Assembly: GCA_022566535.1 (NCBI GenBank)
Contig: JADFIR010000001.1
Location: 176,195-240,194 of the forward strand
Direction of reading: 5' to 3'
Source of the DNA: Planctomycetota bacterium
GTDB taxonomy: Bacteria > Planctomycetota > Phycisphaerae > Phycisphaerales > SM1A02
Length of the DNA stretch: 64,000 nucleotides
Both the position numbers and the translations under genes were made by a program. Shown piece after piece: positions 35,759-50,282 of the stretch (position 1 is its first letter; every line of letters begins with the position of its first letter). Under the pieces are notes generated by a model. The model did not search any database. It saw only the letters and a list, made by a program, of their open reading frames with translations, and was not told the origin of the DNA.

Positions 35759-36439
35759 ATGAAGCTGGACGCTGCCGGCAACGCAATGGTCAAGGTCACC
35801 AACTTCGGCGAGATCGAGTTCGGCCGAGGCACATCGCCCTCAAGCGGATCATCGAGGCCCGCCGGTACGCCGCACGTTGGTGCGCGGCACGGAACGGTCG
35901 TGGCGCGCGGCTACACACTCATCGAACTCATCCTCGTGATGGGCATCCTTGCGCTGGCCGCAGCGCTGCTGGTGCCGCACCTCGTGGACCGCGACAGCCT
36001 GGCCGTCCAGTCGGCGGTTCGCTTGATCATCGCCGATCTGAGCTTCGCTCAGTCGGACGCATTGGCGAATCAAGAGTACCGTCGCATCCAGTTCTACGCC
36101 GACGGCCGGGGCTACTGCCTGTATCGCGTCACCGATGCCGACTTCGCGGACCCATTCGATCCGAACCTGGTCGATTACGATTACCTTCTTGATCCACTAC
36201 ACGCGCAGCGGGACTATATCGTTGACTTCACTGAAGGCAGCCGATTCGAGGGCATCAGCATCAGCGCGGTGAATATTGACGGGGGGACGCGGCAGATCAC
36301 CTACGACGCGCTGGGCGGGACGGTCGTGGCGGTGGGTACGCCGGGCACCGGTGGCCAGATCACAGTTTCATCTCCGTCCGGCGACTACCGGATCGACATC
36401 GCGCCGTTTACCGGCAAGTTGACGGTGACCAAGTTGTAG
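35759..36439 (+). CDS. GspH/FimT-like pseudopilin
   Basis: ARG-YTLIELILVMGILALAAALLVPHL prepilin motif with Glu +5. The leader is unusually long (50 aa) from the ATG at 35759 (GGGGAG upstream). The in-frame GTG at 35900 would give the leader MARG. Confidence 0.7.
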   Translation: MKLDAAGNAMVKVTNFGEIEFGRGTSPSSGSSRPAGTPHVGARHGTVVARGYTLIELILVMGILALAAALLVPHLVDRDSLAVQSAVRLIIADLSFAQSDALANQEYRRIQFYADGRGYCLYRVTDADFADPFDPNLVDYDYLLDPLHAQRDYIVDFTEGSRFEGISISAVNIDGGTRQITYDALGGTVVAVGTPGTGGQITVSSPSGDYRIDIAPFTGKLTVTKL

Positions 36440-37641: not shown

Positions 37642-38324
37642 AACAACGCAACATTGATCTCGTGCCCGATTCGATCCGTGTTCGCAGTCAGGCCGGCGTG
37701 GTGGCTGGGCGATATGTCGCTGCCCTCCTGATCGCGATCGCCCTGATGGTGGTGACGGTTACCCATTCCCGTTTGGTACTCGATCGGGCTCACAAGCGAT
37801 TGCGGGTGGCGGAGGAACAGGCAGACCTGGTTCTGTCGGCGGAAGCCAAGGCTGATCAGTTGCGAAGCAGGCTCGACGACACCCACGACCAGATCCGCCG
37901 CTACAGGCTTATCGCAATGCCGCTGGAGGTCAGTCGTGTCATCGCCACCGTCACGAATGAGTTGCCGACCAGTGCAACGTTGGATCGAATCGACCTCTTT
38001 GCCGGCAGCCGTCGGACGAATCGCTCGGCTCGGAGCAGAGGCATCAGCGCTGAGGATGGGCCGGCTCCGCGCATTCTTAGTGGGGAGCTGAGTGGATTTG
38101 CGGCGACGGACCAGGAAGTTGCGGAAATCGTGGCCAGGCTTGAGGCGTTGGGACTTTTCAAGCAGGTCGGCCTCAATTTCAGTCGCACCCGCCCGATGCG
38201 AGGGCGCGGCGCGCGAGAGTTTCGAATCAGCTTCCGCATCGATATGGACGTTGAATACGACGTCGTCGATCGTGCCCGCCCCGAGCTCCAGGCCAGTCAA
38301 GAGGGAGCGCACGATGTCCAGTAG
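37638..38324 (+). CDS. PilN-like bitopic assembly protein
   Basis: MKQRNIDLVPDSIR followed by the TM helix YVAALLIAIALMVVTV. ATGA overlap with pilM. Confidence 0.65.
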   Translation: MKQRNIDLVPDSIRVRSQAGVVAGRYVAALLIAIALMVVTVTHSRLVLDRAHKRLRVAEEQADLVLSAEAKADQLRSRLDDTHDQIRRYRLIAMPLEVSRVIATVTNELPTSATLDRIDLFAGSRRTNRSARSRGISAEDGPAPRILSGELSGFAATDQEVAEIVARLEALGLFKQVGLNFSRTRPMRGRGAREFRISFRIDMDVEYDVVDRARPELQASQEGAHDVQ

Positions 38325-38886
38325 CAAACATCTTCGGATCGCGATCCTCGCCGTGGTCATTGTCGTGACCGTGGGGGGACTGTTGCTTGTCTGGCCGTCC
38401 TACCGCGAGGCGAAGGCGCTCAACCATCAAGCCGCCGTACTTCGCAACAAAGGCGAAGCCTACAACATCCAAGTCGAAGTGATCGATCGGCTTACTGCCG
38501 ATCTGGATGAAATGACCCGCCGGGTGGCGACGGAACACAAGGTCATTCCCGAGTCCTCAGACATTGCCGGGCTGATGCGAGTGCTGTCGATGCCGGTGGA
38601 CGGGGTGACTATCCGCGACCAAACGTTCACAACCGGCCAGCCCAAAGAAGCCGTGGTCGGCGGCGATCTTACTGCGATGGCCACGCCTCTGACGATCGAC
38701 ATGGTTGCGCGGTTCGACTCAATTTTCGCGCTGATCCAGGCGGCGGAATCGTTGGACCGCCTACTGCGTGTCGAGTCATTGAACATGGTCTGCGAGCATC
38801 CTGAGGGAGAGGATGAATTGTTCATAAGTGCCTCGGTGAGTCTGGATGTGATCTATGACCCGCCGGGGGCGAGGGAGGATGGTTGA
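38314..38886 (+). CDS. PilO-like bitopic assembly protein
   Basis: N-terminal TM helix IAILAVVIVVTVGGLLLV, a coiled coil, then an alpha/beta C-terminal part. 11-nt overlap with the previous gene. Confidence 0.6.
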   Translation: MSSSKHLRIAILAVVIVVTVGGLLLVWPSYREAKALNHQAAVLRNKGEAYNIQVEVIDRLTADLDEMTRRVATEHKVIPESSDIAGLMRVLSMPVDGVTIRDQTFTTGQPKEAVVGGDLTAMATPLTIDMVARFDSIFALIQAAESLDRLLRVESLNMVCEHPEGEDELFISASVSLDVIYDPPGAREDG

Positions 38887-39505
38887 GATGGTCTTGGTGC
38901 TCAGGCGACTGTGGATTCAGATCACCTCCGACCGCAAGCGGTTCGGCATCTTGTGCGCGATGTTGGCGGTGGGGCTGCTGTTGTGGGCGAGAATAATCGT
39001 GACTTCCAATTTGCCGCGCACGGCCGTGGCCAATGATCCCAAGCCGCCGGCCAGGGGAGGTTTACAGCCTCGCGGAGGTGTCTGGGGAACATCCGATAAG
39101 CACCAGGGGCCTCCTGTGCGGGTCGAGATGTCGCGCTTGCCGTTACGAGATCCATTCTTGATCAGCGCCCAACACTTTCCCAAACCAACCCCGGTTGACA
39201 TGTTGGCCCAAGATCAGGCGAAGTTACGACGAGATACGACCGAAAACCCAGAACAAGCGGAAGCCCGGTTGATCGACCAACTCCGGGCTTTGATTGAACG
39301 CTTCGAGTTGGAAGCGGTGATGCAGGGTCGCCCGATGGCCGTGATCAACGGAAGAACCTATCGGTTGCTCGATTGGATTCCCGCGATCGAAAACAGCAAG
39401 ATCCGCTTCCAGCTGGTTGAAGTCGGACATCGATCAGTAGTCCTCGAATTCGAGGGTCGCCGGTTCGAGTTGGAGATGGAGCATCCAGGCAGTGCCCAGC
39501 GCTAG
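38879..39505 (+). CDS. PilP/GspC-like protein (HR-domain-like C-terminus)
   Basis: TM helix FGILCAMLAVGLLLWARIIV. The C-terminal AVINGRTYRLLDWI...FQLVEVGHRSVVLEFEGRRFELEM resembles secretin-binding beta domains. Confidence 0.5.
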   Translation: MVEMVLVLRRLWIQITSDRKRFGILCAMLAVGLLLWARIIVTSNLPRTAVANDPKPPARGGLQPRGGVWGTSDKHQGPPVRVEMSRLPLRDPFLISAQHFPKPTPVDMLAQDQAKLRRDTTENPEQAEARLIDQLRALIERFELEAVMQGRPMAVINGRTYRLLDWIPAIENSKIRFQLVEVGHRSVVLEFEGRRFELEMEHPGSAQR

Positions 39506-39538: not shown

Positions 39539-41653
39539 ATGAATCCGAAGATCAGATGTACTGGAAGGCGTTTTCTTGGGAGCACAGGGGCCGTTTGTGC
39601 GTGTTGGGTGGTGCTGGCAGCGCCGGCGCTGGGGCAAGACTGGGCGGATCAGGCGAACACCGATGTCAACGTGACCGACTACGGCACGGTGGATCTGGCC
39701 GTTCAGGAGACCGACCTGTCACAAGTCCTTCAAATGCTCTCCATCCAGAGCAAGAAGAACATCATCACCTCCAAGAGCGTGTCCGCCACCGTCACCGCCA
39801 ACCTCTACGACGTCACGTTCCACGAGGCGCTCGACGCCATTCTGCGCGTCAACGGCTACGGCTACCTCGAAGAGGGCAACTTCGTCTACATTTACACATT
39901 GGCGGAGCTTGCGGAAATGGAGGCTTCGAGCCGTGTCACTGAAAGCCGCATCTTTGAGCTCGACTACCTTTCCGCCGTTGACGCCAACGAGTTCATCACA
40001 CCGCTGCTCAGCGACGTCGGCCAAAGCTCCCACCGCGGGGAGGTGCAGCCGGGGTTCCAGCCCGACATAAGCGATGGGGGAGCGGACTCGTACGCGTACA
40101 GCGCCAAGCTGGTGATCAATGATTTTCCCGAGAACCTTCGGGCCATCGCGGACCTGCTCGACGATCTTGACACCCCGCCGCAACAGGTGCTCATCGAGGC
40201 CACCGTCCTTCAGACTGCTTTGGACGAGACCAACGCCTTCGGCGTGGACTTCTCTGTGATCGCCGATCTGGATTTCATCGATCTGCACAGCCCGCTTGGG
40301 GTGGTCAACAATCTCCTGTCCGGCGACGACGTGAAGAAAGGATTTCAACCGACCGATAACGAGTCGTTTGGGGGGGCATCGACCGTCGGGAACACGGCAG
40401 GTGCGGGCGGCTTGAAGCTCGGCCTTATCACCAACAACGTCAGCGCCTTCTTGCGAGTTCTCGACGAGGTGACCGACACCACGGTACTGGCCAGACCCAA
40501 GATCATGGCGCTGAACCGCCAACGGGCCGCAGTGCTCGTGGGTGCTCGGGTCGGATACCTCTCGACCACCGCGACCCAGACCACCACGACGCAGACCGTC
40601 AAGTTCCTTGACACGGGTATCTCGCTGATCTTCCGCCCGTTCATTTCCAAGGATGGAACGATCCGTATGGAGCTGTCCCCCAAGGTGTCTGAGGCCAGCC
40701 TGCGCGCCGTCACCGACTCCCAGGGACTGCAGGTGACGATTCCCGACGAGCTGACCAACGAGCTGACGACCAACGTTCGCATCCGGGATGGGCAGACGTT
40801 GGTGCTGGGCGGCCTGTTCAGAGAATCCACACGGGTCAGCCGCAGGCAGATTCCGTGGCTCGGCGATATTCCGATCATCGGCGCTGCCTTCCGTGGGCAG
40901 GACGATACGGTCGATCGCGATGAGATCATTTTCCTCATCACCCCTTCCATCGTGCCTGACGATGTCTTATGGGCGACCGGTCAAGAGACGCTGGCCTACT
41001 CCAACGCGATCGCGGTCGGCGCGCGGGCAGGTCTGCTTCCATTCAGCCGCGAAGGCATCACCAACAACCACAATCTTGACGCCATGGACGCGTATGAGCG
41101 CGGCGATCTCGATATGGCCCTGTACCACGTCAACATCTCGCTACGGTTGAGGCCTGTGCAGCCGGCGATGCTCAGGCTCCGCCAGGAGATCACGGGTGAG
41201 AAGGAGAGGGTTCACGAGCGCAGCATGATGGAGCGAGCGTTCCGCAAGGTACTGGGGCGTGGGCCCTCGCAAGAAGCCGCCTCCGGCCAGACGCCGCCTG
41301 GGCCGAGGTCGATGCCGATGCGCTCCTTTACGTTGCAAGAGCTCATGGTGGATGAGCCGGGGCATTGGTCCGACATGCACGAGCCCGGCACGGGCGATTC
41401 GAGCACAGGCACCGAATCGGTGTCGCAGGAATCGTCCGGCGAGTGGTTCGAATGGCATGGAGACGGGGATGCCGATGACGCCGAGGAGGCAGGTTCCGGA
41501 ATCGATTCCGCCGGTGCGACGCCGCAGACGAGCGGGGGGCAGCCGAGTCACGAGGAGCAGGGCGAGGCCGAAGGCCCCCACTCAAACGCCGCGACGATTC
41601 CCGACGACGAATGGCTCGTCGCACAGCGGCTGCGGCGCATGTTTTCCAGGTAG
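39539..41653 (+). CDS. secretin (GspD/PilQ family) with long acidic C-terminal tail
   Basis: QTLVLGGLFRESTRVSRRQIPWLGDIPIIGAAFRG secretin core signature. N-domains with VTANLYDVTFHEALDAIL. Confidence 0.9.
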   Translation: MNPKIRCTGRRFLGSTGAVCACWVVLAAPALGQDWADQANTDVNVTDYGTVDLAVQETDLSQVLQMLSIQSKKNIITSKSVSATVTANLYDVTFHEALDAILRVNGYGYLEEGNFVYIYTLAELAEMEASSRVTESRIFELDYLSAVDANEFITPLLSDVGQSSHRGEVQPGFQPDISDGGADSYAYSAKLVINDFPENLRAIADLLDDLDTPPQQVLIEATVLQTALDETNAFGVDFSVIADLDFIDLHSPLGVVNNLLSGDDVKKGFQPTDNESFGGASTVGNTAGAGGLKLGLITNNVSAFLRVLDEVTDTTVLARPKIMALNRQRAAVLVGARVGYLSTTATQTTTTQTVKFLDTGISLIFRPFISKDGTIRMELSPKVSEASLRAVTDSQGLQVTIPDELTNELTTNVRIRDGQTLVLGGLFRESTRVSRRQIPWLGDIPIIGAAFRGQDDTVDRDEIIFLITPSIVPDDVLWATGQETLAYSNAIAVGARAGLLPFSREGITNNHNLDAMDAYERGDLDMALYHVNISLRLRPVQPAMLRLRQEITGEKERVHERSMMERAFRKVLGRGPSQEAASGQTPPGPRSMPMRSFTLQELMVDEPGHWSDMHEPGTGDSSTGTESVSQESSGEWFEWHGDGDADDAEEAGSGIDSAGATPQTSGGQPSHEEQGEAEGPHSNAATIPDDEWLVAQRLRRMFSR

Positions 41654-41873
41654 GGGTTCTGGCAGGCGGCTGACAACCCCCCTCCCATGCCGATGACCCG
41701 GGTTGGGGGCACTCGTTTCCCTTTGTCACGTTCGATGACCTCGTGGAGGTTGCCAGCGTGACCGACGATGCAGACTTCATGAAGTAAAGGCACAGTGATC
41801 GGAGCGGGGAGCGATGGGGGGAGCAGGTGTTATGCATGGTCAACCTCTGTTGCGCAGATCGGAGACGCGATAC

Positions 41874-43115
41874 ATGTCAACCCGACCGATCATCATCGTC
41901 ATCGTCCTGTTGCTCGCCATCGGCTCGTCGCTCACCGGCTGCGGTCTGAGCCCAAAGGGGATCGACGCGAGACTGAAGGCACGGGAGCGCGTGAACTTCG
42001 TCAACGCCCAGTTCACCTATGACCAGGCGATGCAGGCGTTCGAGGTCGGCCGGTTCGACCGTGCTCTTCGCGGAATCAACGCGGCCATTGAGCTTGTTCC
42101 CGAGTCGGCGGACTTTTACATCCTTCAAGGGCGAATCCATCTCGAGACGCACCGCCTCGAGAAAGCGATCGATTCCTTCACATCCGCCCTCGAGCATCAG
42201 AGCGACTTCGCTGACGCTTATTACTTCGCCGGGATCGTATACCAACGCTGGTCCGACGATGGCAGGGCATACGAACACTACATGGCTGCCTACGAGCTGG
42301 AGCCGAGCTCGATCGGGTATCTTCTCGCCGCGGCTGAGTCGATGATTGCGCTGGAGCAGCTCGATCAGGCGAAGCAGCTGATCCTGTCGAAGCTGGCCTA
42401 TTTCGAGCACAACGCATCGCTACGACATCTGCTTGGGCAGATCGCCCTGCTCCAGGGTGATGCAGCCACGGCAGCGAAGCTTCTCGCCGAGGCCTGGCGT
42501 CGCAATCCCGATGACCAGATGCTGCTGGAGGAGCTGGCGCACGCCCAATCCGCAGCAGGCATGCACGCGAAATGTTACAAGTCGGTGAAGCAGCTACAGC
42601 AGATGTCCCGCGAGAAGCGGCCGGATTTGATTCATCTCGAGGCCCGGTGTCTTTTCTCCATGGAGCGGCTGATCGAGGCTCGCAACGTCTACCTGGTGCT
42701 GACAAGACTCACCCCAGCTGATCCGGAGGTGTGGATCGAGCTGGGGACGTTGGCGTGGGAGCTGGGCGACTTCCATCGTCTGGCCCAATGCGGGGCCCGT
42801 GTCACCGCGCTGGCTCCGCAGCGCTACGAGGGGTATATGCTCAAGGGGATCAATGAACGCCACCGCGGTGATTTCCGCAAGGCGAGCCGGCTGTTGCGTC
42901 AGGCGACGGATCGTGCTGGTGAAACCGCGCTTCCGTATCTGGTGCTCGGTCGAACGCTCGAAGAGACCGGTGACCGGGAAGGCGCTCTGGACGCGTATAC
43001 GGAGGGGATTCGAGTCGAGCCTGACAACGCCGATGCTCGGGTGCTGCTCGCGCGGCTGAGTCGCAATGAACAGATCGTGCCAGTCCAGCCTCAGGAGCAG
43101 ATCCGCACCGAGTGA
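41874..43115 (+). CDS. TPR-repeat lipoprotein (PilF/PilW-type pilotin candidate)
   Basis: MSTRPIIIVIVLLLAIGSSLTGC lipobox. Multiple TPR units (e.g. ADAYYFAGIVYQRWSDDGRAYEHYMAAYELEP). Confidence 0.7.
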   Translation: MSTRPIIIVIVLLLAIGSSLTGCGLSPKGIDARLKARERVNFVNAQFTYDQAMQAFEVGRFDRALRGINAAIELVPESADFYILQGRIHLETHRLEKAIDSFTSALEHQSDFADAYYFAGIVYQRWSDDGRAYEHYMAAYELEPSSIGYLLAAAESMIALEQLDQAKQLILSKLAYFEHNASLRHLLGQIALLQGDAATAAKLLAEAWRRNPDDQMLLEELAHAQSAAGMHAKCYKSVKQLQQMSREKRPDLIHLEARCLFSMERLIEARNVYLVLTRLTPADPEVWIELGTLAWELGDFHRLAQCGARVTALAPQRYEGYMLKGINERHRGDFRKASRLLRQATDRAGETALPYLVLGRTLEETGDREGALDAYTEGIRVEPDNADARVLLARLSRNEQIVPVQPQEQIRTE

Positions 43116-43157
43116 GCGTGGCAGGAGGGCACGCGACGCCGATGCGAGGGAGGGACA

Positions 43158-44642
43158 GTGAGGGCGGGAAAGATTGCAAGCCTATGCCTCGTCTTGATCG
43201 TTTCGGCCGTGGGAACGGCGTTGTCATTTAGTGCGTCGACCGTTGGGTGGTTGGCCGCGATGCCTCCGATGCTGCGGCTGTGCTTGTTGTTCGGCGTGCT
43301 CGGTCTGGTTTGTGCGGCGCTGCTGTTGCCGGTGGGAGTCGCCCTTGATCGGACGGTGACCAAGCTGCGGAGCTATATCGAGGCGACCGGCGCCGCCGAG
43401 GGCCAAACCGCAACGTTCTACGGTCCCAAGTGGGTGGGCCCGATTAGCGGCGCTCTCATCGGCGCGGTTGAGCAATTCAGGCAACGCGAGCAGACGCTGA
43501 GAAATGAGCTGCGGGAGGTCGAGATCCGCCGACGGGTCTCGGAGGCTGAGCAGCGGCAGGTTGAAGCTGTCCTGCACGCCCTTCGAGACGGGGTGCTGGT
43601 CACGAACGCGTTCAACGATGTTGTCGTTGCCAACGAGGCGGCAGGAAGGATCTTCGGCTTCGACCACACCCAGGCGCTTCACCAGCCCCTCGAGCAGCTC
43701 GTGGACGATGACCGCCTCTGCCAGCTGATCAAGGATACCTCCGAGACCGCCAACTTCGCTAATCGCCGGCACGTCGAGCACGATATCAACGTCGGTTCGA
43801 GTGAAGCCGGTGCAGGCGACAAAGAGAGGAGGTTCTTCGACGTCACGCTGGCGTGCGTGGAGAATCACAAACACGAGGTGGCCGGGGTTGTGACCATTCT
43901 CCACGATGTCACCCGCGAGCGCGAGATCTCGCAAATGAAATCGGATTTCGTCTCCAAGGCCAGTCACGAGCTGCGCACACCGCTTTCTTCGATCCATGCG
44001 TATGTGGAGATGCTCGTGGACGGTGAGGCGGCAGATGACGAGGCCCGCAATGAGTTCTACCGAATCATTCAGAATGAGACGGACCGGCTCGGGCGACTGC
44101 TGGACAACATGCTGAACATCAGTCGCATTGAGGCGGGCATTGTCCAGATCGAACGTGAGAACGTTGACCTCAGATCGTTGATCGATCGAGCGATCGATAC
44201 GCTCGAGCCGCAAGCGAAGGAAAAGGAGATATCGCTACACACCAAGGTGGCTGAGGTGGACCTCAGCGTCGAGGGAGACGCTGACATGTTGTTCCAGGTC
44301 GTGCTGAACCTCATCTCCAATTCCGTGAAATACACGCCCGCCGGCGGGCGGATCACGGTCTCGGCCGACTCCGACAATCTCACCCGCAGCGTTGTCCTTG
44401 CCGTCTCGGATACGGGCCTGGGTATTCCGCCCGACTCCATACCCAAACTGTTCGACAAGTTCTATCGCGTTGAGAACTACAAACGTGTCGCCAAGGGGAG
44501 CGGTCTGGGGTTGAGTCTTTGCAAGCACATCGTCGAAACCCTTCATCACGGACAGATCGGCGTCGAGTCGGAACTGGGTATGGGTTCCAAGTTCTGGGTC
44601 ACGATTCCAATGCGCTATGCCGGATCACAGGCAGCGGCATGA
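43158..44642 (+). CDS. sensor histidine kinase (2 TM, PAS-like, HisKA, HATPase_c)
   Basis: H-box SDFVSKASHELRTPLSSIHAY. N, G1 and G2 boxes incl. GSGLGLSLCKHIVE. Confidence 0.9.
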   Translation: MRAGKIASLCLVLIVSAVGTALSFSASTVGWLAAMPPMLRLCLLFGVLGLVCAALLLPVGVALDRTVTKLRSYIEATGAAEGQTATFYGPKWVGPISGALIGAVEQFRQREQTLRNELREVEIRRRVSEAEQRQVEAVLHALRDGVLVTNAFNDVVVANEAAGRIFGFDHTQALHQPLEQLVDDDRLCQLIKDTSETANFANRRHVEHDINVGSSEAGAGDKERRFFDVTLACVENHKHEVAGVVTILHDVTREREISQMKSDFVSKASHELRTPLSSIHAYVEMLVDGEAADDEARNEFYRIIQNETDRLGRLLDNMLNISRIEAGIVQIERENVDLRSLIDRAIDTLEPQAKEKEISLHTKVAEVDLSVEGDADMLFQVVLNLISNSVKYTPAGGRITVSADSDNLTRSVVLAVSDTGLGIPPDSIPKLFDKFYRVENYKRVAKGSGLGLSLCKHIVETLHHGQIGVESELGMGSKFWVTIPMRYAGSQAAA

Positions 44643-44654
44643 TTCAGGAGAGAG

Positions 44655-45071
44655 TTGATGGCTTCTCGAATCCTTGTGGTTGATGACGAGGCACACATTC
44701 TGCATGTGCTCTCGGTCAAGCTTGGTAACGCGGGACTCGAGGTCAGCACCGCGGTCGATGGCGAAGAGGCCTTTGAGATGGCGTGTCAGGATTTGCCCGA
44801 TCTCATCATCACCGACTTTCAGATGCCGTACATGACCGGGTTGGAATTGTGCCGGGCGTTGGCGGGCAATGCTACCACGGCACACATTCCCGTACTGATC
44901 CTCACCGCCCGCGGCTATGCGCTAGATGACGAGGATCTGAAGATCGGCAGCATCAAAGGGGTCCTGAGCAAGCCGTTCAGCCCGCGATCAGTGCTTCAAC
45001 TCGTTGAGGATTTGCTGGCAACCGAGGCAGGCGGCGATCAGACGAAGCGACTGGGGCCGGAGGCAGCGTGA
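44655..45071 (+). CDS. single-domain response regulator (CheY-like receiver)
   Basis: ILVVDDE, DLIITDFQMPYMTG (phospho-Asp), LTARG, SKPFSP. Confidence 0.9.
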   Translation: MMASRILVVDDEAHILHVLSVKLGNAGLEVSTAVDGEEAFEMACQDLPDLIITDFQMPYMTGLELCRALAGNATTAHIPVLILTARGYALDDEDLKIGSIKGVLSKPFSPRSVLQLVEDLLATEAGGDQTKRLGPEAA

Positions 45072-46720
45072 GCCATAGCGACACCCAACTCGACGCCAAG
45101 CTCGCCCACCAGCTGCGACAGAGACTCCGGCAGGTGGGGCTGCTGCTGCTTGACTGCGACAAGGCAGGCGGGCTGATCTCACGGCCTCAGCCGGGCACGG
45201 ATTGGCTGGCCGATCTGTTCTGCCAGGCCGCCATCTTCACCAGCGCTGTCCGTCAGGCAGCTGCGGCCTGGTCCCAGCAAAGCACGCCGATGCCGGTGGA
45301 GCTCTTCCCTGGATGTTGGCTCTCGCCGATCCCCAGGACCAATCGCCGACGCCGAACGGGCTATGCCCTGGCGGTGATCCTCACTGAGCGCTTTCTGGAC
45401 TGCGAACAGCTCTCGGCGATGTGCCAGGCCGCACGCGCGGACTTCGAGGTCATTCGACGCATGCTGGCCGACCTTCCGCCGGTCGGCCCGTCGGATGTCA
45501 GCAGAACAGCGGCGATGGTCAGCCACGCGCTTGAGGATCACTGGAAACGAATCTCCGACAGCCAGGCGATGGAGAGCGTGGGGCAGCAGCTTGCCGAGTC
45601 GTACGAAGAAATCAACCTTCTCTATACGATCATCCAGAGCATGTCGGTGGTGGATCAGCCGGAGCGGTTTGTGACCATCGCCTGCGAAGAGTTGCTCGCC
45701 ACGCTGCCCTATGCATGGATCGGCGCGCAGCTGGCGGACGATCGGGAGACGCTCAAGAAGCTTGCCGGCCGGCTGATCATCGCGGGCGATTCGGGCCAGC
45801 CGCAATCCCAGCTTCGGGAGTTGACCCGCAGCATCTTGGCCGAGGCGAAGCCTGATGTGCCAATCGTGCTTGAGCCCGCAACCAACCCCCTGCACGCCAA
45901 GTATGTCCAGCTCGGGAAGACCGTTCTGGTCCATCCGGTCAGCCGCGACGGGAAGGTGATTGGCCTGCTCATCGCGGGTGAGAAGCAGGGGCAGGACACG
46001 ACCGCGTCAAACGTGGATTTGAAACTTCTCGGCGCGACTGCATCCCACATGAGCATCTTCCTCGAGAACGCGGCGCTCTACGACGACCTCAACGCGATGT
46101 TCCTCGGCACCCTCGAAGCGCTGACGGCTTCCATCGATGCGAAGGACACATACACTTGCGGTCACTCCCAGCGCGTCGCGCATCTGACGCAACAACTGGC
46201 TGAAGCGATGGGCCTCGATGAGCACACGGTCAGCCGGATGCATATCGCCGGCGTTGTGCATGACGTGGGCAAGATTGGCGTGCCCGAATCGGTGCTCACG
46301 AAGCCCGGACGACTCACCGAGGAGGAGTTCGCCTGGATGCGGCAGCATCCTCAAATCGGTTACCGCATCCTCAAGGATATCCCCCAACTTCGGGAAATCC
46401 TTCCCGGCGTGCTCTACCACCATGAGCGGTGGGACGGCAAGGGCTATCCCGAGGGTCTTTGCGGTGATCGCATCCCAAAGGTCGCCCGCATGATCGCGCT
46501 GGCGGACGCATTTGACGCCATGAGTTCGACCCGCACGTATCGGCCGGCGCTCTCGCGCGCGGCGGTGCTTCAAGAGATTATGGAGTGTGCAGGGACGCAG
46601 TTCGATCCTGAGTTCGCGCCGGTGTTCGTTCGGATCGATTTCAGCGGGTACGACCGCCTGTTCGCCGAGCATCGAGCCGGCGAGCAGAAGGCCTCGCAGG
46701 ACGAGGAGCAGGCCGCATGA
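45068..46720 (+). CDS. GAF-containing HD-GYP domain protein (c-di-GMP phosphodiesterase family)
   Basis: HSQRVAHL, VVHDVGKIGVPESVL, HHERWDGKGYPEGL. GTGA overlap with the receiver gene. Confidence 0.9.
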   Translation: MSHSDTQLDAKLAHQLRQRLRQVGLLLLDCDKAGGLISRPQPGTDWLADLFCQAAIFTSAVRQAAAAWSQQSTPMPVELFPGCWLSPIPRTNRRRRTGYALAVILTERFLDCEQLSAMCQAARADFEVIRRMLADLPPVGPSDVSRTAAMVSHALEDHWKRISDSQAMESVGQQLAESYEEINLLYTIIQSMSVVDQPERFVTIACEELLATLPYAWIGAQLADDRETLKKLAGRLIIAGDSGQPQSQLRELTRSILAEAKPDVPIVLEPATNPLHAKYVQLGKTVLVHPVSRDGKVIGLLIAGEKQGQDTTASNVDLKLLGATASHMSIFLENAALYDDLNAMFLGTLEALTASIDAKDTYTCGHSQRVAHLTQQLAEAMGLDEHTVSRMHIAGVVHDVGKIGVPESVLTKPGRLTEEEFAWMRQHPQIGYRILKDIPQLREILPGVLYHHERWDGKGYPEGLCGDRIPKVARMIALADAFDAMSSTRTYRPALSRAAVLQEIMECAGTQFDPEFAPVFVRIDFSGYDRLFAEHRAGEQKASQDEEQAA

Positions 46721-47052
46721 AGCTCAGCTATGAAGATCATGAGACGATTACTGTGCTGACGATCAGTGGCGAGCTGACCATTGACCAGGCCGATGGATTG
46801 CGACGATCCTGTCAGGACCGGTTTACAGCCGGCATCCGCGATGTTGTGCTCAACATGGAGTACCTGACGTTCGTCGATTCGGCGGGGCTGGAGGCGTTGT
46901 TGTGGATCATCGACGAGGCCTCGGAGCGTGGCGGACAGCTCCGTCTCGTCAGTCCGGATGAGACGGTCCGCAAGATCCTCGAGATCACCCGGCTGGATAA
47001 ACGGTTCAACATTCACGACAGCATTGAATCCGCCGCAAAGAGTCTGCGCTGA
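46717..47052 (+). CDS. STAS domain protein (anti-sigma-factor antagonist fold)
   Basis: 111 aa with VLNMEYLTFVDSAGLEALL (conserved phospho-Ser context DSAG). ATGA overlap with the HD-GYP gene. Confidence 0.85.
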   Translation: MKLSYEDHETITVLTISGELTIDQADGLRRSCQDRFTAGIRDVVLNMEYLTFVDSAGLEALLWIIDEASERGGQLRLVSPDETVRKILEITRLDKRFNIHDSIESAAKSLR

Positions 47053-47053
47053 T

Positions 47054-48802
47054 ATGGACCAACGTACGATGAATCAGAAGGAAGGCACTCATTCAACTCT
47101 TGACGTCGGTCCATGGCTTCAGGTCGGCGAGGCGCTCATCGACAAGGGGTACATCACCGCCAAACAGCTTGACGAAGCCCTGGAGCACCAGGCCCAAAAG
47201 GGCCACAAGAAACTCCTGGGCGAAGTCTTGGTGGATCTGAACTTCGTCACCGACGAGCAAGTGATCGAGGTCCTGGCCGAGGGATATGGCGTGCCGTTTG
47301 TCACGCAGGCGGCCAAGATCGCTGATCCGAAGGTTGTTGAACTACTGCCGCGCGAATTTCTGGAAGAGCACAGCCTTCTGCCGCTGTTCCTCGTTCGGGA
47401 CGTGTTGACCGTCGCGGTCTCCGAACCCGCCAACCTGTTCTTGGTCGAAGAGATTCAACGACTGACCGGGCACGAGGTGCAGATTGTGGCGACGACCACC
47501 GCGGAGATCGAGGCGTCGCTGCAAGCGTATCTCCCGGCCGCCAACGTCTTCGTAATCGACGATATTTATGAAGATATTGATGACGCGGACTTCAGCATCA
47601 TCGAGAAACAGGTCACCGAACTTGCGGACCTGGAGGAGGTCGCCGGCCGGAGTCCCGTGGTCAAGCTGGTGAACTACCTGATTTTTTCGGCGGTGCAGGA
47701 CGGAGCATCAGACATCCACATCGAACCCGATGATCACCGTCTTCGCGTCCGTTACCGTGTTGACGGGCGTTTGTTTGAAAAGCTCTTGCCGCCCTATCAG
47801 ATGCACGCGGCGATCACCAGCCGTATCAAGATCATGTCCAACCTCGATATCTCCGAGCGGCGTCTTCCACAGGACGGCGACATCCACACGTTGATGGAGG
47901 GCCGGCCGATTGATCTCCGAGTCTCCACCATGCCGGGAAAGTTCGGCGAGAAGGTGGTCATCCGCATCATCGATCATCGAACCTCCATTGTCTCGCTGGA
48001 CAAGCTCGGCTTCTCGCGCCAGATGTTCGAGGCATGGAAGGAGGTAGTCCGTCAGCCCAACGGTGTCGTGTTGGTGACCGGTCCGACCGGCTCGGGCAAA
48101 TCGACGACGCTGTATTCCGTGCTCAGTCTGCTGAACTCCGATGAGCTGAACATCTCCACGGTCGAAGATCCTATCGAAGCGAGCATCCCCGGCATCAACC
48201 AAACGCAGGTACACGAGAAGGCGGGATTCACCTTCGCGGCGGCGATGCGATCGATGCTGCGGCAAGACCCCGACATCATGATGGTGGGGGAGATTCGCGA
48301 CGGGGAGACCGCCTCCGTGACCACTCAGGCGGCCCTGACGGGACATCTGGCTTTCTCCACCCTCCACACGAACGACTCCCCCAGCGCGGTCACCCGGTTG
48401 ATCAACATCGGCATTGAGCCCTATCTGGTTGCGGCGACACTTCGCGGCGTCCTCGCCCAAAGGTTGGTTCGCAAAATCTGCCCCCATTGCAAGGAGTCCT
48501 ACGAACCTGATCAAGCGATCCGAGAGGCGGTGGAGCATTACTGTGGCACGGTCGAATGTCTCTACCGCGGACAGGGCTGCACCCGCTGCCGGGGAACGGG
48601 CTTTGCCGGGCGGATCGGCATCTTCGAGCTGATGATTCCAGATGAGATTCTGCTTGCGGCCATTGCCAGAGGCGCAACCCTCCAGGAGCTGAGGGAAATG
48701 CTTGCCAAAAACGGTTTCGTCACCCTGCGAGCGGACGGTATGGAAAAGGTACAGGGTGGGCTTACCACTGCTGGGGAGGTCTTCTACGTCACCAGCATGT
48801 GA
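47054..48802 (+). CDS. GspE/PilB-type secretion/pilus assembly ATPase with T2SSE_N (MshEN-like) N-domain
   Basis: Walker A VTGPTGSGKSTTLYS, Asp/His boxes, tetracysteine CPHC...CTRC. The ATG lies 1 nt after the STAS stop. Confidence 0.95.
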   Translation: MDQRTMNQKEGTHSTLDVGPWLQVGEALIDKGYITAKQLDEALEHQAQKGHKKLLGEVLVDLNFVTDEQVIEVLAEGYGVPFVTQAAKIADPKVVELLPREFLEEHSLLPLFLVRDVLTVAVSEPANLFLVEEIQRLTGHEVQIVATTTAEIEASLQAYLPAANVFVIDDIYEDIDDADFSIIEKQVTELADLEEVAGRSPVVKLVNYLIFSAVQDGASDIHIEPDDHRLRVRYRVDGRLFEKLLPPYQMHAAITSRIKIMSNLDISERRLPQDGDIHTLMEGRPIDLRVSTMPGKFGEKVVIRIIDHRTSIVSLDKLGFSRQMFEAWKEVVRQPNGVVLVTGPTGSGKSTTLYSVLSLLNSDELNISTVEDPIEASIPGINQTQVHEKAGFTFAAAMRSMLRQDPDIMMVGEIRDGETASVTTQAALTGHLAFSTLHTNDSPSAVTRLINIGIEPYLVAATLRGVLAQRLVRKICPHCKESYEPDQAIREAVEHYCGTVECLYRGQGCTRCRGTGFAGRIGIFELMIPDEILLAAIARGATLQELREMLAKNGFVTLRADGMEKVQGGLTTAGEVFYVTSM

Positions 48803-48813
48803 TGGGAGGGGCG

Positions 48814-50058
48814 ATGCCTGCGCAAAGCACATACACCTACAAGGCTCGGGACAGCAGCGGCGCCGTCGTCACCGGGTCGATGGTTGCCTCCAGTGCCGAC
48901 GATGTCAGTGCTCGCCTCCGAGCCGAGGGCAGCTTCGTCTTCGAAGTCGAAGAAAACCCAATGCGGGCGGTCCCCGAGTTGGATGAACAGCAGATTCGCC
49001 GCAGCGAGGCCTCTAAGAGCGTCAAACGAGAGGACGTCATTGGTTTCTGTCAGCAGTTGTCAGTGATGCTCGACACCGGCGTCCCGCTCGCTGAAGCGCT
49101 CGATTCATTCTGCCAGCAGACGCCTCGAAAGGAATTCCGCGGAGTTCTTGAGGTGCTCCGCGACGACATCCACAGCGGCGAACCGCTGTCAGCGGCTGCG
49201 GCGAAGTGGCCGCGCGTCTTCCCAGGGATGATGATTAGCCTGATGCGAGCCTCCGAAGCATCGGGAACCATGGCCACGATGTTGGGGCGAGTCGGTGATT
49301 ACCTCGCCAAGGAACGCCGCACGGCCAAGCAGATTAAAGGAGCCCTGAGCTACCCGATCTTCATGATGATCTCGGGTATCGCGATGACGGTGTTCCTGAT
49401 GTCGTTCGTGTTGCCTCGCTTTGCCAGAATCTACGACCAGCGAGCAGCCACGCTCCCGACGCCGACCAGGATTCTGCTGGGTCTTAGTGAGTTCGTTACC
49501 ACGCAGTACATGTGGTACGGCCCGGTCTTGACGGCCGTCGTCGTCGCGCTGGTCATTTGGGTCAAAAAGCCGTCCGGCCGACGTGTGTGCGACTGGATCC
49601 GCCTCCATTGTCCCGGCGTGCGAGGGATGTTCGGCCACTTGTACATCACCCGGACGACGAGGACCATGGCCACGTTGATGGCGGCCGGCGTCAATCTCCT
49701 GGACATCATCGACATCTGCCGGGGAGTCACGGGCAACGTCTATTACGCTGACCTGTGGGATTCCATGGAGGACGGAGTTCGAAAGGGCCAGCAGATCAGC
49801 GACGCGACCTTCGCCTGTTCGTTCATTCCGCCCAATGTCTCCTCGATGATCGCCGCCGGCGAGCGGTCCGGCCAACTCAGTAAGGTCATGGAGCGGATCG
49901 CGGAGTTCAGCCAGGAAGAGCTTGATTCCACGGTCAGGCAGGTCACCGCCTTCATTGAGCCGGTGATGATCATGTGTATGGGCGTGGTCATCGGTGGCCT
50001 CGCCCTGGCGCTACTGCTGCCGATCTTCAGCATGGGCAAGGTCATGGCCGGCGGATAA
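48814..50058 (+). CDS. GspF/PilC-type inner-membrane platform protein
   Basis: Two-fold repeated T2SSF architecture with 3 TM segments. ATG at 48814 is preceded by GGGAGGGG; the ORF opens at 48799. Confidence 0.9.
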   Translation: MPAQSTYTYKARDSSGAVVTGSMVASSADDVSARLRAEGSFVFEVEENPMRAVPELDEQQIRRSEASKSVKREDVIGFCQQLSVMLDTGVPLAEALDSFCQQTPRKEFRGVLEVLRDDIHSGEPLSAAAAKWPRVFPGMMISLMRASEASGTMATMLGRVGDYLAKERRTAKQIKGALSYPIFMMISGIAMTVFLMSFVLPRFARIYDQRAATLPTPTRILLGLSEFVTTQYMWYGPVLTAVVVALVIWVKKPSGRRVCDWIRLHCPGVRGMFGHLYITRTTRTMATLMAAGVNLLDIIDICRGVTGNVYYADLWDSMEDGVRKGQQISDATFACSFIPPNVSSMIAAGERSGQLSKVMERIAEFSQEELDSTVRQVTAFIEPVMIMCMGVVIGGLALALLLPIFSMGKVMAGG

Positions 50059-50125
50059 GCGGGGAAGGCATCAAGGCACCAAGGGACGAACGGACGGAGG
50101 GATCGGAGCGCGACGAAGTCCCTAG

Positions 50126-50145
50126 CCGCGGGTGGAAACCCGCGG
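50126..50145 (+). terminator. hairpin CCGCGGGT-ggaa-ACCCGCGG after the platform gene
   Basis: 8-bp perfect stem 68 nt after the stop. No clear U-tract. Confidence 0.35.
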
Positions 50146-50282
50146 GCGTGCCACCTTGTTGCTTTCGCTCTGCGGCGAGCAGGCTAAGCCTTGGAGGACT
50201 GGACGCACCGAGACCCCGTGCTGACGTGCGCGGCTCGTCAAATCGCTAGACTTGAGCCGCAACCGCCTGAGAGTTTACCTGA

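What the first reader, a model, noticed from the sequence alone, without database searches (positions are those of the whole stretch)
43158..47052. Two-component system, HD-GYP and STAS genes wedged between secretin module and motor ATPase, translationally chained
Seen: the genes run histidine kinase (43158-44642), receiver-only regulator (44655-45071), GAF-HD-GYP (45068-46720), STAS (46717-47052), then the ATPase (47054). The junctions are a GTGA overlap, an ATGA overlap and a 1-nt gap. I saw no terminator-like hairpin between them.

Established: HD-GYP domains hydrolyse c-di-GMP. STAS proteins act in partner-switching with kinases or phosphatases. Canonical gsp and pil operons do not carry these genes inside the structural operon.

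Inference: there is a dedicated phospho-relay and c-di-GMP control circuit that is stoichiometrically co-expressed with the motor. The STAS protein may be a direct ATPase partner. This is the most system-like unexplained arrangement in the window.
Basis: partly seen in the sequence, partly recalled or inferred. Interest (0 to 1): 0.7.

Follow-up and report, generated by a model that had tools for sequence, protein, structure and literature searches.

The report
Conserved c-di-GMP switch inside pilus operon
Four signalling genes (a sensor kinase, its receiver, a c-di-GMP-degrading HD-GYP enzyme and a small STAS protein) sit directly in front of the motor ATPase of a type IV pilus-like machine. 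This block is conserved across many Planctomycetota genomes, which suggests a dedicated and so far undescribed control module for the pilus motor.

Summary
On the + strand the genes run HK (43158-44642), receiver-only RR (44655/44658-45071), HD-GYP (45068-46720), STAS (46717-47052), PilB-type ATPase (47054 or 47069-48802) and PilC. The GTGA and ATGA overlaps are real and no junction has a terminator.

The block lies inside a type IVa-pilus-like cluster: pilin, minor pilin, PilMNOP, secretin, TPR, [module], PilB, PilC.

It is not confined to this genome. Of 80 species-level loci holding an HD-GYP relative, 52 show HD-GYP-STAS(-PilB) in this order. Another 15 carry a rearranged version (RR-HD-GYP facing pilin...PilC-PilB-STAS-HK). 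The HD-GYP/STAS 4-nt overlap is kept in 40 of 52 loci, down to about 32% protein identity.

The HD-GYP catalytic residues are invariant. The PilB N-terminus passes the curated MshE-type c-di-GMP-motif model, with some deviations.

Most likely a PAS kinase phosphorylates the RR, the RR controls the HD-GYP phosphodiesterase, and local c-di-GMP is read by PilB. The role of STAS is unresolved: an adaptor to PilB is plausible but untested. No partner-switching kinase or phosphatase is encoded nearby.

The closest analogue is Xanthomonas PdeK-PdeR-FimX-PilZ-PilB. This is a new variant of a known kind, of moderate interest.

The parts
34403..34906 (+). Major pilin/pseudopilin with a prepilin N-terminal methylation motif. 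A strong intrinsic terminator follows at 34939-34960.
   Evidence: Pfam N_methyl. NCBIfam hits to GspG, PilA and ComGC cover the N-terminus only. Terminator.
35072..35755 (+). Hypothetical protein with an N-terminal hydrophobic segment. It is the first gene after the terminator.
   Evidence: No Pfam family. Weak relatives occupy the same position in L003 and L016.
35759..36439 (+). GspH/FimT-like minor pilin.
   Evidence: Pfam N_methyl and GspH, both weak. Conserved position across loci.
36487..37641 (+). PilM, the actin-like inner-membrane platform protein.
   Evidence: Pfam PilM_2 at 78 bits.
37638..38324 (+). PilN-like protein. Its ATG overlaps the PilM stop (ATGA).
   Evidence: Pfam PilN at 26 bits. 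Start read from the ORF translation.
38314..38886 (+). PilO-like protein.
   Evidence: Pfam PilO at 30 bits.
38855..39505 (+). PilP-position protein with an uncertain start (38855, 38879 or 38888).
   Evidence: Conserved position across loci. Only a weak T2SSB hit.
39539..41653 (+). Outer-membrane secretin (PilQ/GspD type).
   Evidence: Pfam Secretin at 145 bits. NCBIfam PilQ 211 bits and GspD 207 bits, both below their cut-offs.
41814..43115 (+). TPR protein in the position of a PilF/PilW/Tgl-like pilotin or assembly factor.
   Evidence: Multiple TPR families. A PilW model hit at 70 bits is below its cut-off. Present in most type A loci.
43158..44642 (+). Membrane-anchored histidine kinase with two TM helices, a cytoplasmic PAS domain, HisKA and HATPase_c.
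   Evidence: Hydropathy and conserved SHELkTPL H-box in 45 orthologues. The public gene call also gives 494 aa.
44655..45071 (+). Single-domain response regulator (REC only). The probable start is ATG 44658, preceded by GGAGAG.
   Evidence: Pfam Response_reg at 78.7 bits. DDE, TDxQMP, LTARG and KPF are conserved in 71 sequences. Sequence read.
45068..46720 (+). HD-GYP phosphodiesterase. It has a family-specific N-terminal alpha/beta domain (about 9-135), a long helix (141-193), a GAF-like domain (198-333) and the HD-GYP domain (about 345-525).
46717..47052 (+). Single-domain STAS protein (anti-sigma-antagonist family) with Ser55 in a DSxGLE motif. Its start overlaps the HD-GYP stop (ATGA).
   Evidence: Pfam STAS at 78.5 bits. 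TIGR00377 at 82 bits, above the 53 cut-off. Alignment of 52 orthologues.
47054..48802 (+). PilB-type assembly ATPase (alternative start 47069). It has an N-terminal MshE-like c-di-GMP motif (residues 24-76), an MshEN/N1 domain, Walker A (GPTGSGKST) and a tetracysteine motif.
48799..50058 (+). PilC/GspF platform protein. The start is GTG 48799 (GTGA overlap) or ATG 48814.
   Evidence: Pfam T2SSF at 186 bits. Public gene call.

Best explanation
This is a lineage-wide regulatory cassette built into a type IVa-pilus-like operon of Phycisphaerae/Planctomycetota. It most likely sets the activity or engagement of the PilB assembly ATPase through local c-di-GMP turnover.

Proposed chain:
1. The membrane-anchored kinase has no periplasmic domain and a cytoplasmic PAS. 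It senses an intracellular or membrane cue and autophosphorylates on the H-box histidine. The domains and residues are shown; the signal is unknown.
2. The kinase phosphorylates D54 of the stand-alone receiver. This is inferred from adjacency and canonical residues.
3. The phosphorylated receiver binds the HD-GYP protein, through its N-terminal domain or helix, and changes its phosphodiesterase activity. This would be a split version of the common REC-HD-GYP (RpfG-type) architecture. It is inferred. Supporting facts are that RR-HD-GYP is the most constant pair and that the two genes overlap by 4 nt in 22 of 70 loci.
4. The HD-GYP enzyme hydrolyses c-di-GMP. The catalytic residues are invariant; activity is not tested.
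5. PilB reads c-di-GMP through its N-terminal MshE-type motif, which changes pilus assembly. The motif passes the curated model; binding is not tested.
6. The STAS protein is made by translational coupling with the HD-GYP enzyme and is always encoded immediately before PilB. It probably acts as a small adaptor or gate that links the phosphodiesterase to the motor, or modulates one of them. Its conserved Ser55 may be phospho-regulated by a kinase encoded elsewhere. This is the least supported step.
For: Synteny:
- Of 80 species-level loci, 52 have HD-GYP-STAS in the same order. In 49 of these PilB follows, and 41 have the complete HK-RR-HD-GYP-STAS-PilB run.
- A further 15 have RR-HD-GYP convergent on a pilin...PilM-PilC-PilB-STAS-HK cluster, so all five components stay together despite rearrangement.

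Coupling:
- The HD-GYP/STAS 4-nt overlap is present in 40 of 52 loci.
- A G-rich SD-like element lies 9-14 nt upstream in both deep lineages.
- The RR/HD-GYP gap is at most 30 nt in 47 of 70 loci.

Enzyme:
- The best solved relative is the active c-di-GMP phosphodiesterase PmGH (4MCW, E 2.6e-38).
- H366, H398, D399, H427, H451, H452, D480 and G459-Y460-P461 are invariant in 56 sequences.

Receptor:
- PilB residues 24-76 hit NF053729 (MshE-related c-di-GMP motif) at 57 bits against a cut-off of 38.
- The two half-motifs are conserved in 47 orthologues.
- The spacing matches Geobacter PilB.

Two-component residues are conserved. All proteins co-diverge, with pairwise-distance r of 0.78-0.95, which points to vertical inheritance as a block. 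Partial correlation is higher for STAS-PilB (0.46) than for STAS-HD-GYP (0.28).

Precedent: in Xanthomonas, a two-component-controlled phosphodiesterase (PdeK-PdeR) with the adaptors FimX and PilZ controls PilB (PMC11656802; PMC8389850).
Against: - There is no biochemical or expression evidence of any kind.
- The MshEN motif deviates from the published consensus. The first Arg of both halves is replaced (Q23, L52). In the second half G becomes N and the closing Q becomes G. Even the relaxed published pattern [RKPN]hG... fails at position 1.
- PmGH Glu185, which ligates its third metal, is an invariant Tyr here (Y362). The site would therefore be binuclear, and from my own knowledge such enzymes can be poor c-di-GMP hydrolases (PA4781).
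- No diguanylate cyclase lies in the window.
- Nothing shows which protein STAS binds. No STAS-PilB or STAS-HD-GYP fusion appears among the 150 best representatives. The fusions found are to an RsbW-like kinase and to a WecG glycosyltransferase.
- Twelve of 80 loci have the HD-GYP relative without STAS or PilB within reach. Some of these are paralogues matching only the HD-GYP domain.
Confidence: 0.55

Rival explanations
1. STAS works with the kinase rather than with PilB or the HD-GYP enzyme. As in RsbV/RsbW or SpoIIAA/SpoIIAB, STAS would bind the GHKL ATP-binding domain of the adjacent histidine kinase, and might be phosphorylated on Ser55. This would tune kinase output as a feedback or gating element of the two-component system.
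For: In the rearranged (type B) loci STAS lies between the HK and PilB, in the order HK-STAS-PilB. The type B kinase gives a marginal hit to the RsbW-type HATPase_c_2 family (27.7 bits against a cut-off of 27.4). Ser55 sits in the canonical phospho-acceptor position and is kept in 45 of 52 type A orthologues and in all four type B copies. The nearest multidomain relative of this STAS is fused to an RsbW-like kinase domain.
Against: The window kinase is a canonical HisKA/HATPase_c kinase with no HATPase_c_2 hit. As far as I know, no histidine kinase has been shown to use a STAS protein this way. In type A loci STAS is separated from the HK by two genes and is coupled to the HD-GYP gene instead. 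Seven orthologues have Gly in place of the serine.
Confidence: 0.12
2. STAS is the output of a classical phospho-dependent partner switch whose kinase and PP2C phosphatase are encoded elsewhere. It would toggle between the HD-GYP enzyme and PilB depending on Ser55 phosphorylation. This resembles HsbA switching between FlgM and the cyclase HsbD, or SiaC activating SiaD, in Pseudomonas.
For: STAS passes the anti-sigma-antagonist model (TIGR00377, 82 bits against a cut-off of 53). The DSxGLE serine is largely conserved. STAS-like proteins regulating c-di-GMP enzymes are documented (SiaC-SiaD, PMC8457831). STAS is gene-coupled to HD-GYP on one side and PilB on the other.
Against: No RsbW-like kinase or PP2C is in the window. 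No RsbW-like kinase is in the 10-kb flanks of any of the 80 loci, at single-sequence phmmer sensitivity. PP2C was not searched in those flanks. The serine is lost in 7 of 52 orthologues.
Confidence: 0.15
3. The HD-GYP protein is not a c-di-GMP hydrolase in this setting. It could degrade 3'3'-cGAMP or pGpG, or act as a catalytically quiet scaffold or sensor. PilB control would then be through protein contacts rather than nucleotide level.
For: The second-best solved relative is the cGAMP-specific V-cGAP3 (5Z7C, E 1.5e-36). The third-metal glutamate of PmGH is Tyr here. The MshEN motif in PilB is imperfect. No cyclase gene is nearby.
Against: All other metal ligands and the GYP motif are invariant over 56 sequences, as expected for an enzyme. 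PilB passes the curated c-di-GMP motif model. MshEN binds cGAMP only weakly and does not bind c-di-AMP (PMC5013675).
Confidence: 0.1
4. The machine is a type II secretion system rather than a pilus, and the module controls protein secretion.
For: The ATPase scores equally on the GspE and PilB equivalog models (582 and 584 bits, both below their cut-offs). The pilin's best model is GspG and PilC's best model is GspF. No PilT is in the window. A large secreted-looking beta-propeller protein is encoded just upstream at 31063-33864.
Against: The cluster has PilM/PilN/PilO and not GspL/GspM/GspC. The ATPase aligns end to end with the PilB model, including the N-terminal domain, whereas the GspE model covers only residues 96-580. 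A strong terminator after the pilin gene is typical of highly expressed major pilins. Some relatives carry a short second ATPase, probably PilT, between PilB and PilC (L049, L052, L057). This rival changes the output but not the logic of the control module.
Confidence: 0.15

Closest known systems
Xanthomonas PdeK-PdeR / FimX / PilZ / PilB system
   Same: A two-component pair controls a c-di-GMP phosphodiesterase that acts locally on the type IV pilus assembly ATPase. [quoted passage not shown]
   Different: In Xanthomonas the phosphodiesterase is an EAL domain fused to the receiver (PdeR), the adaptors are PilZ and the degenerate GGDEF-EAL protein FimX, and the genes are dispersed. Here the phosphodiesterase is an HD-GYP protein separate from the receiver, and the candidate adaptor is a STAS protein. 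PilB itself carries an MshE-type motif, and all genes sit inside the structural operon. Any STAS-PilB contact is hypothetical.
RpfC-RpfG (Xanthomonas) and PmxA (Myxococcus): HD-GYP response regulators that affect pilus motility
   Same: An HD-GYP phosphodiesterase under phosphorelay control influences type IV pilus-dependent behaviour (PMC4686200; the RpfG details are from my own knowledge).
   Different: In those proteins the receiver is fused to the HD-GYP domain, and the genes are not inside the pil operon. Here the receiver is a separate gene. The HD-GYP protein has a family-specific N-terminal domain plus a GAF domain, and a STAS gene is coupled to it.
MshE/PilB/PilF MshEN-type c-di-GMP-binding extension ATPases
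   Same: The N-terminal two-half-motif domain precedes the N1 and ATPase domains. It passes the curated motif model and aligns with Thermus PilF, Geobacter PilB and Vibrio MshE N-domains.
   Different: The leading Arg of both halves and three other consensus positions are substituted. The spacer is 7 residues rather than 5, as in Geobacter PilB. Binding is untested.
STAS partner-switching modules (SpoIIAA/AB, RsbV/W, HsbR-HsbA-HsbD, SiaABCD)
   Same: It is a single-domain STAS protein with the serine at the canonical phospho-site. There is precedent for STAS-like proteins controlling c-di-GMP enzymes (PMC8457831).
   Different: No cognate serine kinase or PP2C phosphatase and no sigma or anti-sigma factor is in the neighbourhood. 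The serine is not universally kept. The constant neighbours are an HD-GYP enzyme and a PilB ATPase.
MlaB-MlaF (a STAS protein bound to an ATPase)
   Same: It shows that a stand-alone STAS protein can be a structural partner of an ATPase. The window STAS gives a weak MlaB hit of 24 bits.
   Different: MlaF is an ABC ATPase, unrelated to PilB. The MlaB score is far below its cut-off of 90. This is only an analogy.

Membership tests
HD-GYP c-di-GMP phosphodiesterases | HD-superfamily metal ligands (H...HD...H...HH...D) and the HHExxDGxGYP motif | tested here: met
   H366, H398-D399, H427, H451-H452-E453, D480 and G459-Y460-P461 are invariant in 56 sequences. Pfam HD_5 scores 130.6 bits. PmGH 4MCW matches at E 2.6e-38.
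HD-GYP c-di-GMP phosphodiesterases | Third-metal glutamate of the trinuclear subclass (PmGH E185) | tested here: not met
   It aligns with the invariant Y362. The protein therefore belongs, if anywhere, to the binuclear subclass.
HD-GYP c-di-GMP phosphodiesterases | Hydrolysis of c-di-GMP | not testable with these tools
   This needs an enzyme assay.
Two-component system (HisKA kinase plus receiver) | H-box histidine and ATP-binding domain in the kinase; DD, D, T and K in the receiver; adjacent genes | tested here: met
   Pfam HisKA, HATPase_c and Response_reg. SHELkTPL, DDE, TDxQMP, LTA and KPF are conserved. The gap is 12-15 nt here, and the median gap is 37 nt in 46 loci.
STAS / anti-sigma-factor antagonist family | STAS fold by profile, above the curated cut-off | tested here: met
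   TIGR00377 scores 82.3 against a cut-off of 53.45. Pfam STAS scores 78.5 bits.
STAS partner-switching module | Conserved phospho-acceptor serine | tested here: inconclusive
   S55 is present in the window and in 45 of 52 orthologues. It is Gly in 7.
STAS partner-switching module | Cognate RsbW/SpoIIAB-type kinase and/or PP2C phosphatase encoded with it | tested here: not met
   None was found among the window ORFs scanned. No RsbW-like hit appeared in the flanks of 80 loci. The rest of the genome was not available.
MshEN-type c-di-GMP receptor | Two 24-residue half-motifs RLGxx(L/V/I)(L/V/I)xxG(L/V/I)(L/V/I)xxxxLxxxLxxQ | tested here: inconclusive
   The curated model NF053729 is passed (57 bits against 38). 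The hydrophobic core, LG and the first Q are present. R becomes Q in half 1. In half 2, R becomes L, G becomes N and Q becomes G.
MshEN-type c-di-GMP receptor | Binding of c-di-GMP | not testable with these tools
   This needs ITC or DRaCALA.
Type IVa pilus machinery | PilM, PilN, PilO, PilP, secretin, PilB, PilC and a pilin with a prepilin leader | tested here: met
   PilP is assigned by position only.
Type IVa pilus machinery | Retraction ATPase PilT | tested here: not met
   No second T2SSE protein is in the window. A short PilB-like ORF lies between PilB and PilC in L049, L052 and L057. PilT may be encoded elsewhere in the genome.
Type II secretion system | GspC, GspL and GspM inner-membrane components and a GspE above cut-off | tested here: not met
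   PilM, PilN and PilO are found instead. GspE scores 582 bits, below the 630 cut-off.

The most novel reading that the evidence does not exclude
The STAS protein is a previously unrecognised class of PilB cofactor. It would be a small adaptor, functionally analogous to PilZ in the Xanthomonas PilB-PilZ-FimX complex. It would tether a two-component-controlled HD-GYP phosphodiesterase to the pilus motor, creating a private c-di-GMP pool at each machine. Ser55 phosphorylation might switch it between the enzyme and the motor. This would be a phylum-wide Planctomycetota solution to local second-messenger signalling.
Probability: 0.25. Interest if true: 0.75.

Novelty: new variant of a known kind. 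Interest (0 to 1): 0.55.

Why it matters
How bacteria give one of many c-di-GMP enzymes a specific target is an open problem, and hard-wired enzyme-receptor complexes are the favoured answer. In this cluster the sensor, the phosphodiesterase, a candidate adaptor and the c-di-GMP-reading motor are encoded as one block with translationally coupled junctions. The block is conserved over a whole class or phylum. That gives a clean, genetically compact system in which to test local signalling.

It would also add STAS proteins to the list of PilB cofactors. A 2024 review of those cofactors mentions neither STAS nor HD-GYP. Finally, it gives a first handle on pilus regulation in Planctomycetota, where almost nothing is known experimentally.

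Tried and rejected
1. Terminator and promoter scan of 34000-51000. No junction terminators were found, and no sigma-70-like promoters at all. The promoter consensus is probably not informative for this phylum.

2. Rfam scan of the whole window for a c-di-GMP riboswitch or other leader. It found only a tmRNA.

3. Fold search of the HD-GYP N-terminal domain against the PDB. The model is confident (pLDDT 91) but nothing matched below E 0.05. There are only vague similarities to GAF (CodY), PAS and Roadblock folds, so no ligand or partner could be inferred.

4. Rosetta-stone search for STAS fusions. A full HMMER scan of 1.84 billion representatives gave no PilB or HD-GYP fusions among the best 150. 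It returned tandem STAS proteins, STAS fused to an RsbW-like kinase, and STAS fused to WecG.

5. Search for an RsbW-like kinase in the 80 loci. There were no hits. This was single-sequence sensitivity only, and PP2C was not searched there.

6. Mirror-tree analysis. All pairs are highly correlated. The partial correlations mildly favour STAS-PilB over STAS-HD-GYP, but there is no significance test, so this is only a hint.

7. Word-indexed homologue search with STAS. It returned only close Phycisphaerales orthologues (70-96% identity) and said nothing about distribution outside the phylum.

8. Complex prediction (STAS with PilB, HD-GYP, HK or RR). This was not possible because the structure tool takes single chains of window or database sequences only.

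9. Literature searches for this arrangement. Nothing was found for Planctomycetota or for STAS with PilB.

Full report
OBSERVATION

The region was re-read with ORF listing, translation and direct inspection of the junctions. The + strand carries:
- A histidine kinase (43158-44642, 494 aa).
- A receiver-only response regulator (44655-45071, more probably starting at ATG 44658 behind a GGAGAG).
- An HD-GYP protein (45068-46720, 550 aa).
- A STAS protein (46717-47052, 111 aa).
- A PilB/GspE-type ATPase (from 47054 or 47069 to 48802).
- PilC/GspF (to 50058).

Pfam assignments are unambiguous: PAS + HisKA + HATPase_c; Response_reg; HD_5/HD with a weak GAF_2; STAS; MshEN + T2SSE; T2SSF.

The RR stop and HD-GYP start share GTGA. 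The HD-GYP stop and STAS start share ATGA. The STAS stop is 1 nt from ATG 47054. Independent public gene calls on identical contigs prefer ATG 47069 for the ATPase, which gives a 16-nt gap. They agree on the other starts.

A pattern scan finds no terminator at any junction. The only convincing terminator in 34-51 kb follows the pilin gene at 34939-34960.

CONTEXT

The four signalling genes are embedded in a compact, same-strand type IVa-pilus-like cluster:
- Pilin (34403-34906) followed by a terminator.
- A hypothetical gene.
- A GspH/FimT-like minor pilin.
- PilM, PilN (ATGA overlap with PilM), PilO and a PilP-position protein.
- Secretin (39539-41653).
- A TPR protein (41814-43115).
- HK, RR, HD-GYP, STAS, PilB and PilC.

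PilM/N/O are present rather than GspC/L/M. The ATPase aligns end to end with the PilB model. Both points make this a pilus-like rather than gsp-like machine, although equivalog cut-offs are not reached for either.

No PilT, PilZ, GGDEF, RsbW-type kinase or PP2C phosphatase was found among the other window ORFs scanned.

The window organism is a Phycisphaerales-type planctomycete. The nearest database proteins are 96% identical and labelled 'Planctomycetes bacterium'.

IS IT CONSERVED?

The HD-GYP protein has more than 120 full-length cluster representatives at 55-96% identity. A scan of one genome per GTDB species with a profile of this family returned 475 confirmed relatives, and the best 80 loci were fetched with 10-kb flanks. 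I called ORFs in all loci and searched them with the window proteins.

Type A:
- 52 loci have HD-GYP followed by STAS on the same strand.
- In 49 of them PilB follows.
- 41 show the complete HK-RR-HD-GYP-STAS-PilB run, usually preceded by secretin (with or without TPR) and followed by PilC.
- These loci come from MAGs labelled Phycisphaerales, Phycisphaeraceae, Phycisphaera, Tepidisphaeraceae, Sedimentisphaerales and Anaerohalosphaeraceae.
- Some are labelled Pirellulales, Planctomycetales or Isosphaeraceae. I did not verify those labels.
- HD-GYP identity to the window protein falls as low as about 32%.

Type B:
- 15 loci have RR-HD-GYP converging on an inverted pilus cluster.
- Where the locus reaches far enough (L018, L019, L021, L026), that cluster reads HK-STAS-PilB-PilC-PilM-...-PilO-...-pilin.
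- All five components therefore remain within about 12 kb despite a rearrangement, which is classic evidence of functional linkage.

Type C:
- 12 loci show no STAS or PilB in reach.
- Several of these match only the HD-GYP domain and are probably paralogues.
- Three of them (L014, L028, L041) still have pilus genes upstream.

JUNCTIONS ACROSS SPECIES

Downstream starts were refined by alignment to the window proteins.

| Junction | Loci scored | 4-nt overlap | Other measure |
|---|---|---|---|
| HD-GYP to STAS | 52 | 40 | 48 of 52 have a gap of at most 30 nt |
| RR to HD-GYP | 70 | 22 | 47 of 70 have a gap of at most 30 nt |
| STAS to PilB | 49 | 3 | median gap 23 nt |
| HK to RR | 46 | 2 | median gap 37 nt |

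Upstream of the STAS ATG, inside the last HD-GYP codons, both deep lineages keep a G-rich SD-like element (GGAG or GGGGA) 9-14 nt from the start. This probably explains the conserved '..EAA' C-terminus of the HD-GYP protein in the close relatives.

The best-conserved coupling is thus between the phosphodiesterase and STAS. STAS-PilB adjacency is invariant in both arrangements.

THE PROTEINS

Kinase. It has two N-terminal transmembrane helices with essentially no periplasmic loop, a cytoplasmic PAS domain and a conserved H-box. It is a membrane-anchored sensor of an internal or membrane cue.

Receiver. All canonical residues are present (DD, D54, T84, K105), and the family is strongly conserved (DDExHI, TDxQMPxMxGLE, LTARG, KPFSP).

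HD-GYP protein. AlphaFold models built on a 56-sequence alignment give four parts:
- A confident N-terminal alpha/beta domain (residues about 9-135; pLDDT 91 when modelled alone).
- A 50-residue helix.
- A GAF-like domain.
- The HD-GYP domain.

The N-terminal domain has no significant match in the PDB. The best hit is E 0.05, with vague GAF, PAS and Roadblock resemblance.

The catalytic domain is closest to the active c-di-GMP phosphodiesterase PmGH (4MCW, E 2.6e-38). The next-closest is the cGAMP-specific V-cGAP3. All metal ligands and the GYP motif are invariant. The exception is the glutamate that binds the third iron in PmGH, which is an invariant tyrosine here, so a binuclear site is expected.

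STAS. It passes the anti-sigma-antagonist model. It carries Ser55 exactly where SpoIIAA and RsbV are phosphorylated. The motif DSxGLExLLW and a C-terminal ILEITRL motif are the most conserved features. The serine is Gly in 7 of 52 orthologues and is kept in the type B copies. Within Phycisphaerales, STAS is more conserved (70-83% identity) than the HD-GYP protein (55-76%).

PilB. Walker A and tetracysteine motifs are present. Residues 24-76 pass NCBIfam's MshE-related c-di-GMP-motif model (57 bits against a cut-off of 38). Both 24-residue halves are recognisable and conserved in 47 orthologues, with the 7-residue spacer also seen in Geobacter PilB.

Compared with the published consensus and with the authors' relaxed search pattern (PMC5013675), the hydrophobic positions, the LG dipeptides and the first glutamine are kept. 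The leading arginines are Q and L. In the second half G becomes N and Q becomes G. The paper reports that hydrophobic residues matter most and that charged-residue changes cost less than fivefold in affinity. Binding is therefore plausible but not assured.

MECHANISM

The most economical reading has five steps:
1. The PAS kinase phosphorylates the receiver.
2. The receiver controls the HD-GYP enzyme. This would be a split form of the widespread REC-HD-GYP design, and RR-HD-GYP is the most constant pair in all three locus types.
3. The enzyme lowers c-di-GMP locally.
4. PilB reads c-di-GMP through its N-terminal motif.
5. Pilus assembly changes.

Steps 1-4 rest on domain identity, conserved residues and gene linkage. 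None has been measured.

The role of STAS is the open point. Gene order says it belongs with both the phosphodiesterase (translational coupling) and PilB (invariant adjacency, also in type B). A crude mirror-tree analysis gives a higher partial correlation with PilB (0.46) than with HD-GYP (0.28), HK (0.29) or RR (0.09), but this is only a hint.

No fusion proteins help. The best 150 representatives in a full HMMER scan are stand-alone or tandem STAS proteins, with fusions only to an RsbW-like kinase and a WecG transferase.

I therefore favour an adaptor or gate function between enzyme and motor, with low confidence. Two rivals are kept: a partner switch driven by an unlinked serine kinase and phosphatase, and a STAS-kinase (HK) interaction.

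COMPARISON WITH KNOWN SYSTEMS

The closest functional analogue is the Xanthomonas circuit. There the PdeK-PdeR two-component pair (PdeR being a REC-EAL phosphodiesterase) lowers local c-di-GMP. With FimX and the adaptor PilZ, it positions and activates PilB, and PilZ binds the PilB N-terminal domain (PMC11656802; PMC8389850).

The logic here is the same but the parts differ:
- HD-GYP instead of EAL.
- The receiver is a separate protein.
- STAS stands in place of PilZ/FimX.
- PilB has its own MshE-type motif.
- Everything is inside the structural operon.

HD-GYP control of pilus motility is also known from RpfG and from Myxococcus PmxA (PMC4686200). STAS-like regulators of c-di-GMP enzymes are known from SiaC-SiaD (PMC8457831).

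A 2024 review of PilB cofactors mentions neither STAS nor HD-GYP. Four literature searches found no description of this arrangement.

VERDICT

This is a real, strongly conserved and apparently undescribed regulatory cassette made of familiar parts, so it is a new variant of a known kind. Its specific claims (stoichiometric co-expression, STAS as a direct ATPase partner, classical partner switching) remain untested, and the partner-switching reading lacks its defining kinase and phosphatase locally. Interest is moderate at 0.55.

Noticed in passing
window 54473-54823 (+): A tmRNA gene (Rfam RF00023, 147 bits; ARAGORN tag peptide ADTQLALAA).
   Followed up: yes
window 4220-18023 (+): An exosortase/PEP-CTERM-type exopolysaccharide cluster. 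It holds a Poly_export/SLBB protein, exosortase EpsH, a DUF3485 (EpsI-like) protein, a 1606-aa TPR protein, an 888-aa protein with a C-terminal AAA_31 domain (chain-length or tyrosine-kinase-like), an epimerase and a family 4 glycosyltransferase. It lies about 16 kb upstream of the pilus cluster. In Myxococcus, PilB signalling is linked to EPS production.
   Followed up: partly
window 31063-33864 (+): A 933-aa protein made of many 'WDGxxWSxLG' beta-propeller-like repeats (Rax2, DUF5122 and DUF6087 hits) with a dockerin/EF-hand-like DLDGDG C-terminus. It is encoded immediately upstream of the pilin gene and could be a secreted or pilus-associated protein.
   Followed up: no
window 19976-21814 (-) and 20001-22000: A DNA methylase (N6_N4_Mtase) gene lies in the lowest-GC stretch of the window (0.566 against about 0.62). 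It may be a restriction-modification or mobile remnant.
   Followed up: no
window 45068-45475 (HD-GYP residues about 1-135): A family-specific N-terminal alpha/beta domain. It is modelled with pLDDT 91 but has no PDB match below E 0.05. Invariant residues are R21, G24, W46, G82, R94, C119 and R146. It may be the docking site for the receiver or a ligand-binding domain.
   Followed up: partly
L018, L019, L021, L026 (and truncated L007, L011-L013, L022, L023, L033, L034, L040, L045): An alternative 'type B' architecture in a Phycisphaerales/Phycisphaeraceae subgroup. HK-STAS-PilB-PilC-PilM-...-PilO-...-pilin lies on one strand and converges on RR-HD-GYP. The STAS stop overlaps the PilB start there. 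The kinase gives a marginal RsbW-type HATPase_c_2 hit.
   Followed up: partly
L049 13501-14559, L052 13212-14450, L057 3985-5241: A short second PilB-like ATPase, probably PilT, is inserted between PilB and PilC in some relatives. It is absent from the window.
   Followed up: no
window 50283-50786 (+): A stand-alone GAF_2-domain protein lies directly after PilC. Its position is conserved only in the closest relatives (L001-L004). It is probably not part of the module.
   Followed up: partly
window 55011-56759 (+): A patatin-like phospholipase with a long N-terminal multi-TM region.
   Followed up: no
window 18275-19647 (+): A low-molecular-weight phosphotyrosine phosphatase gene overlaps a fructosamine-kinase-family gene, directly after the EPS cluster.
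   Followed up: no
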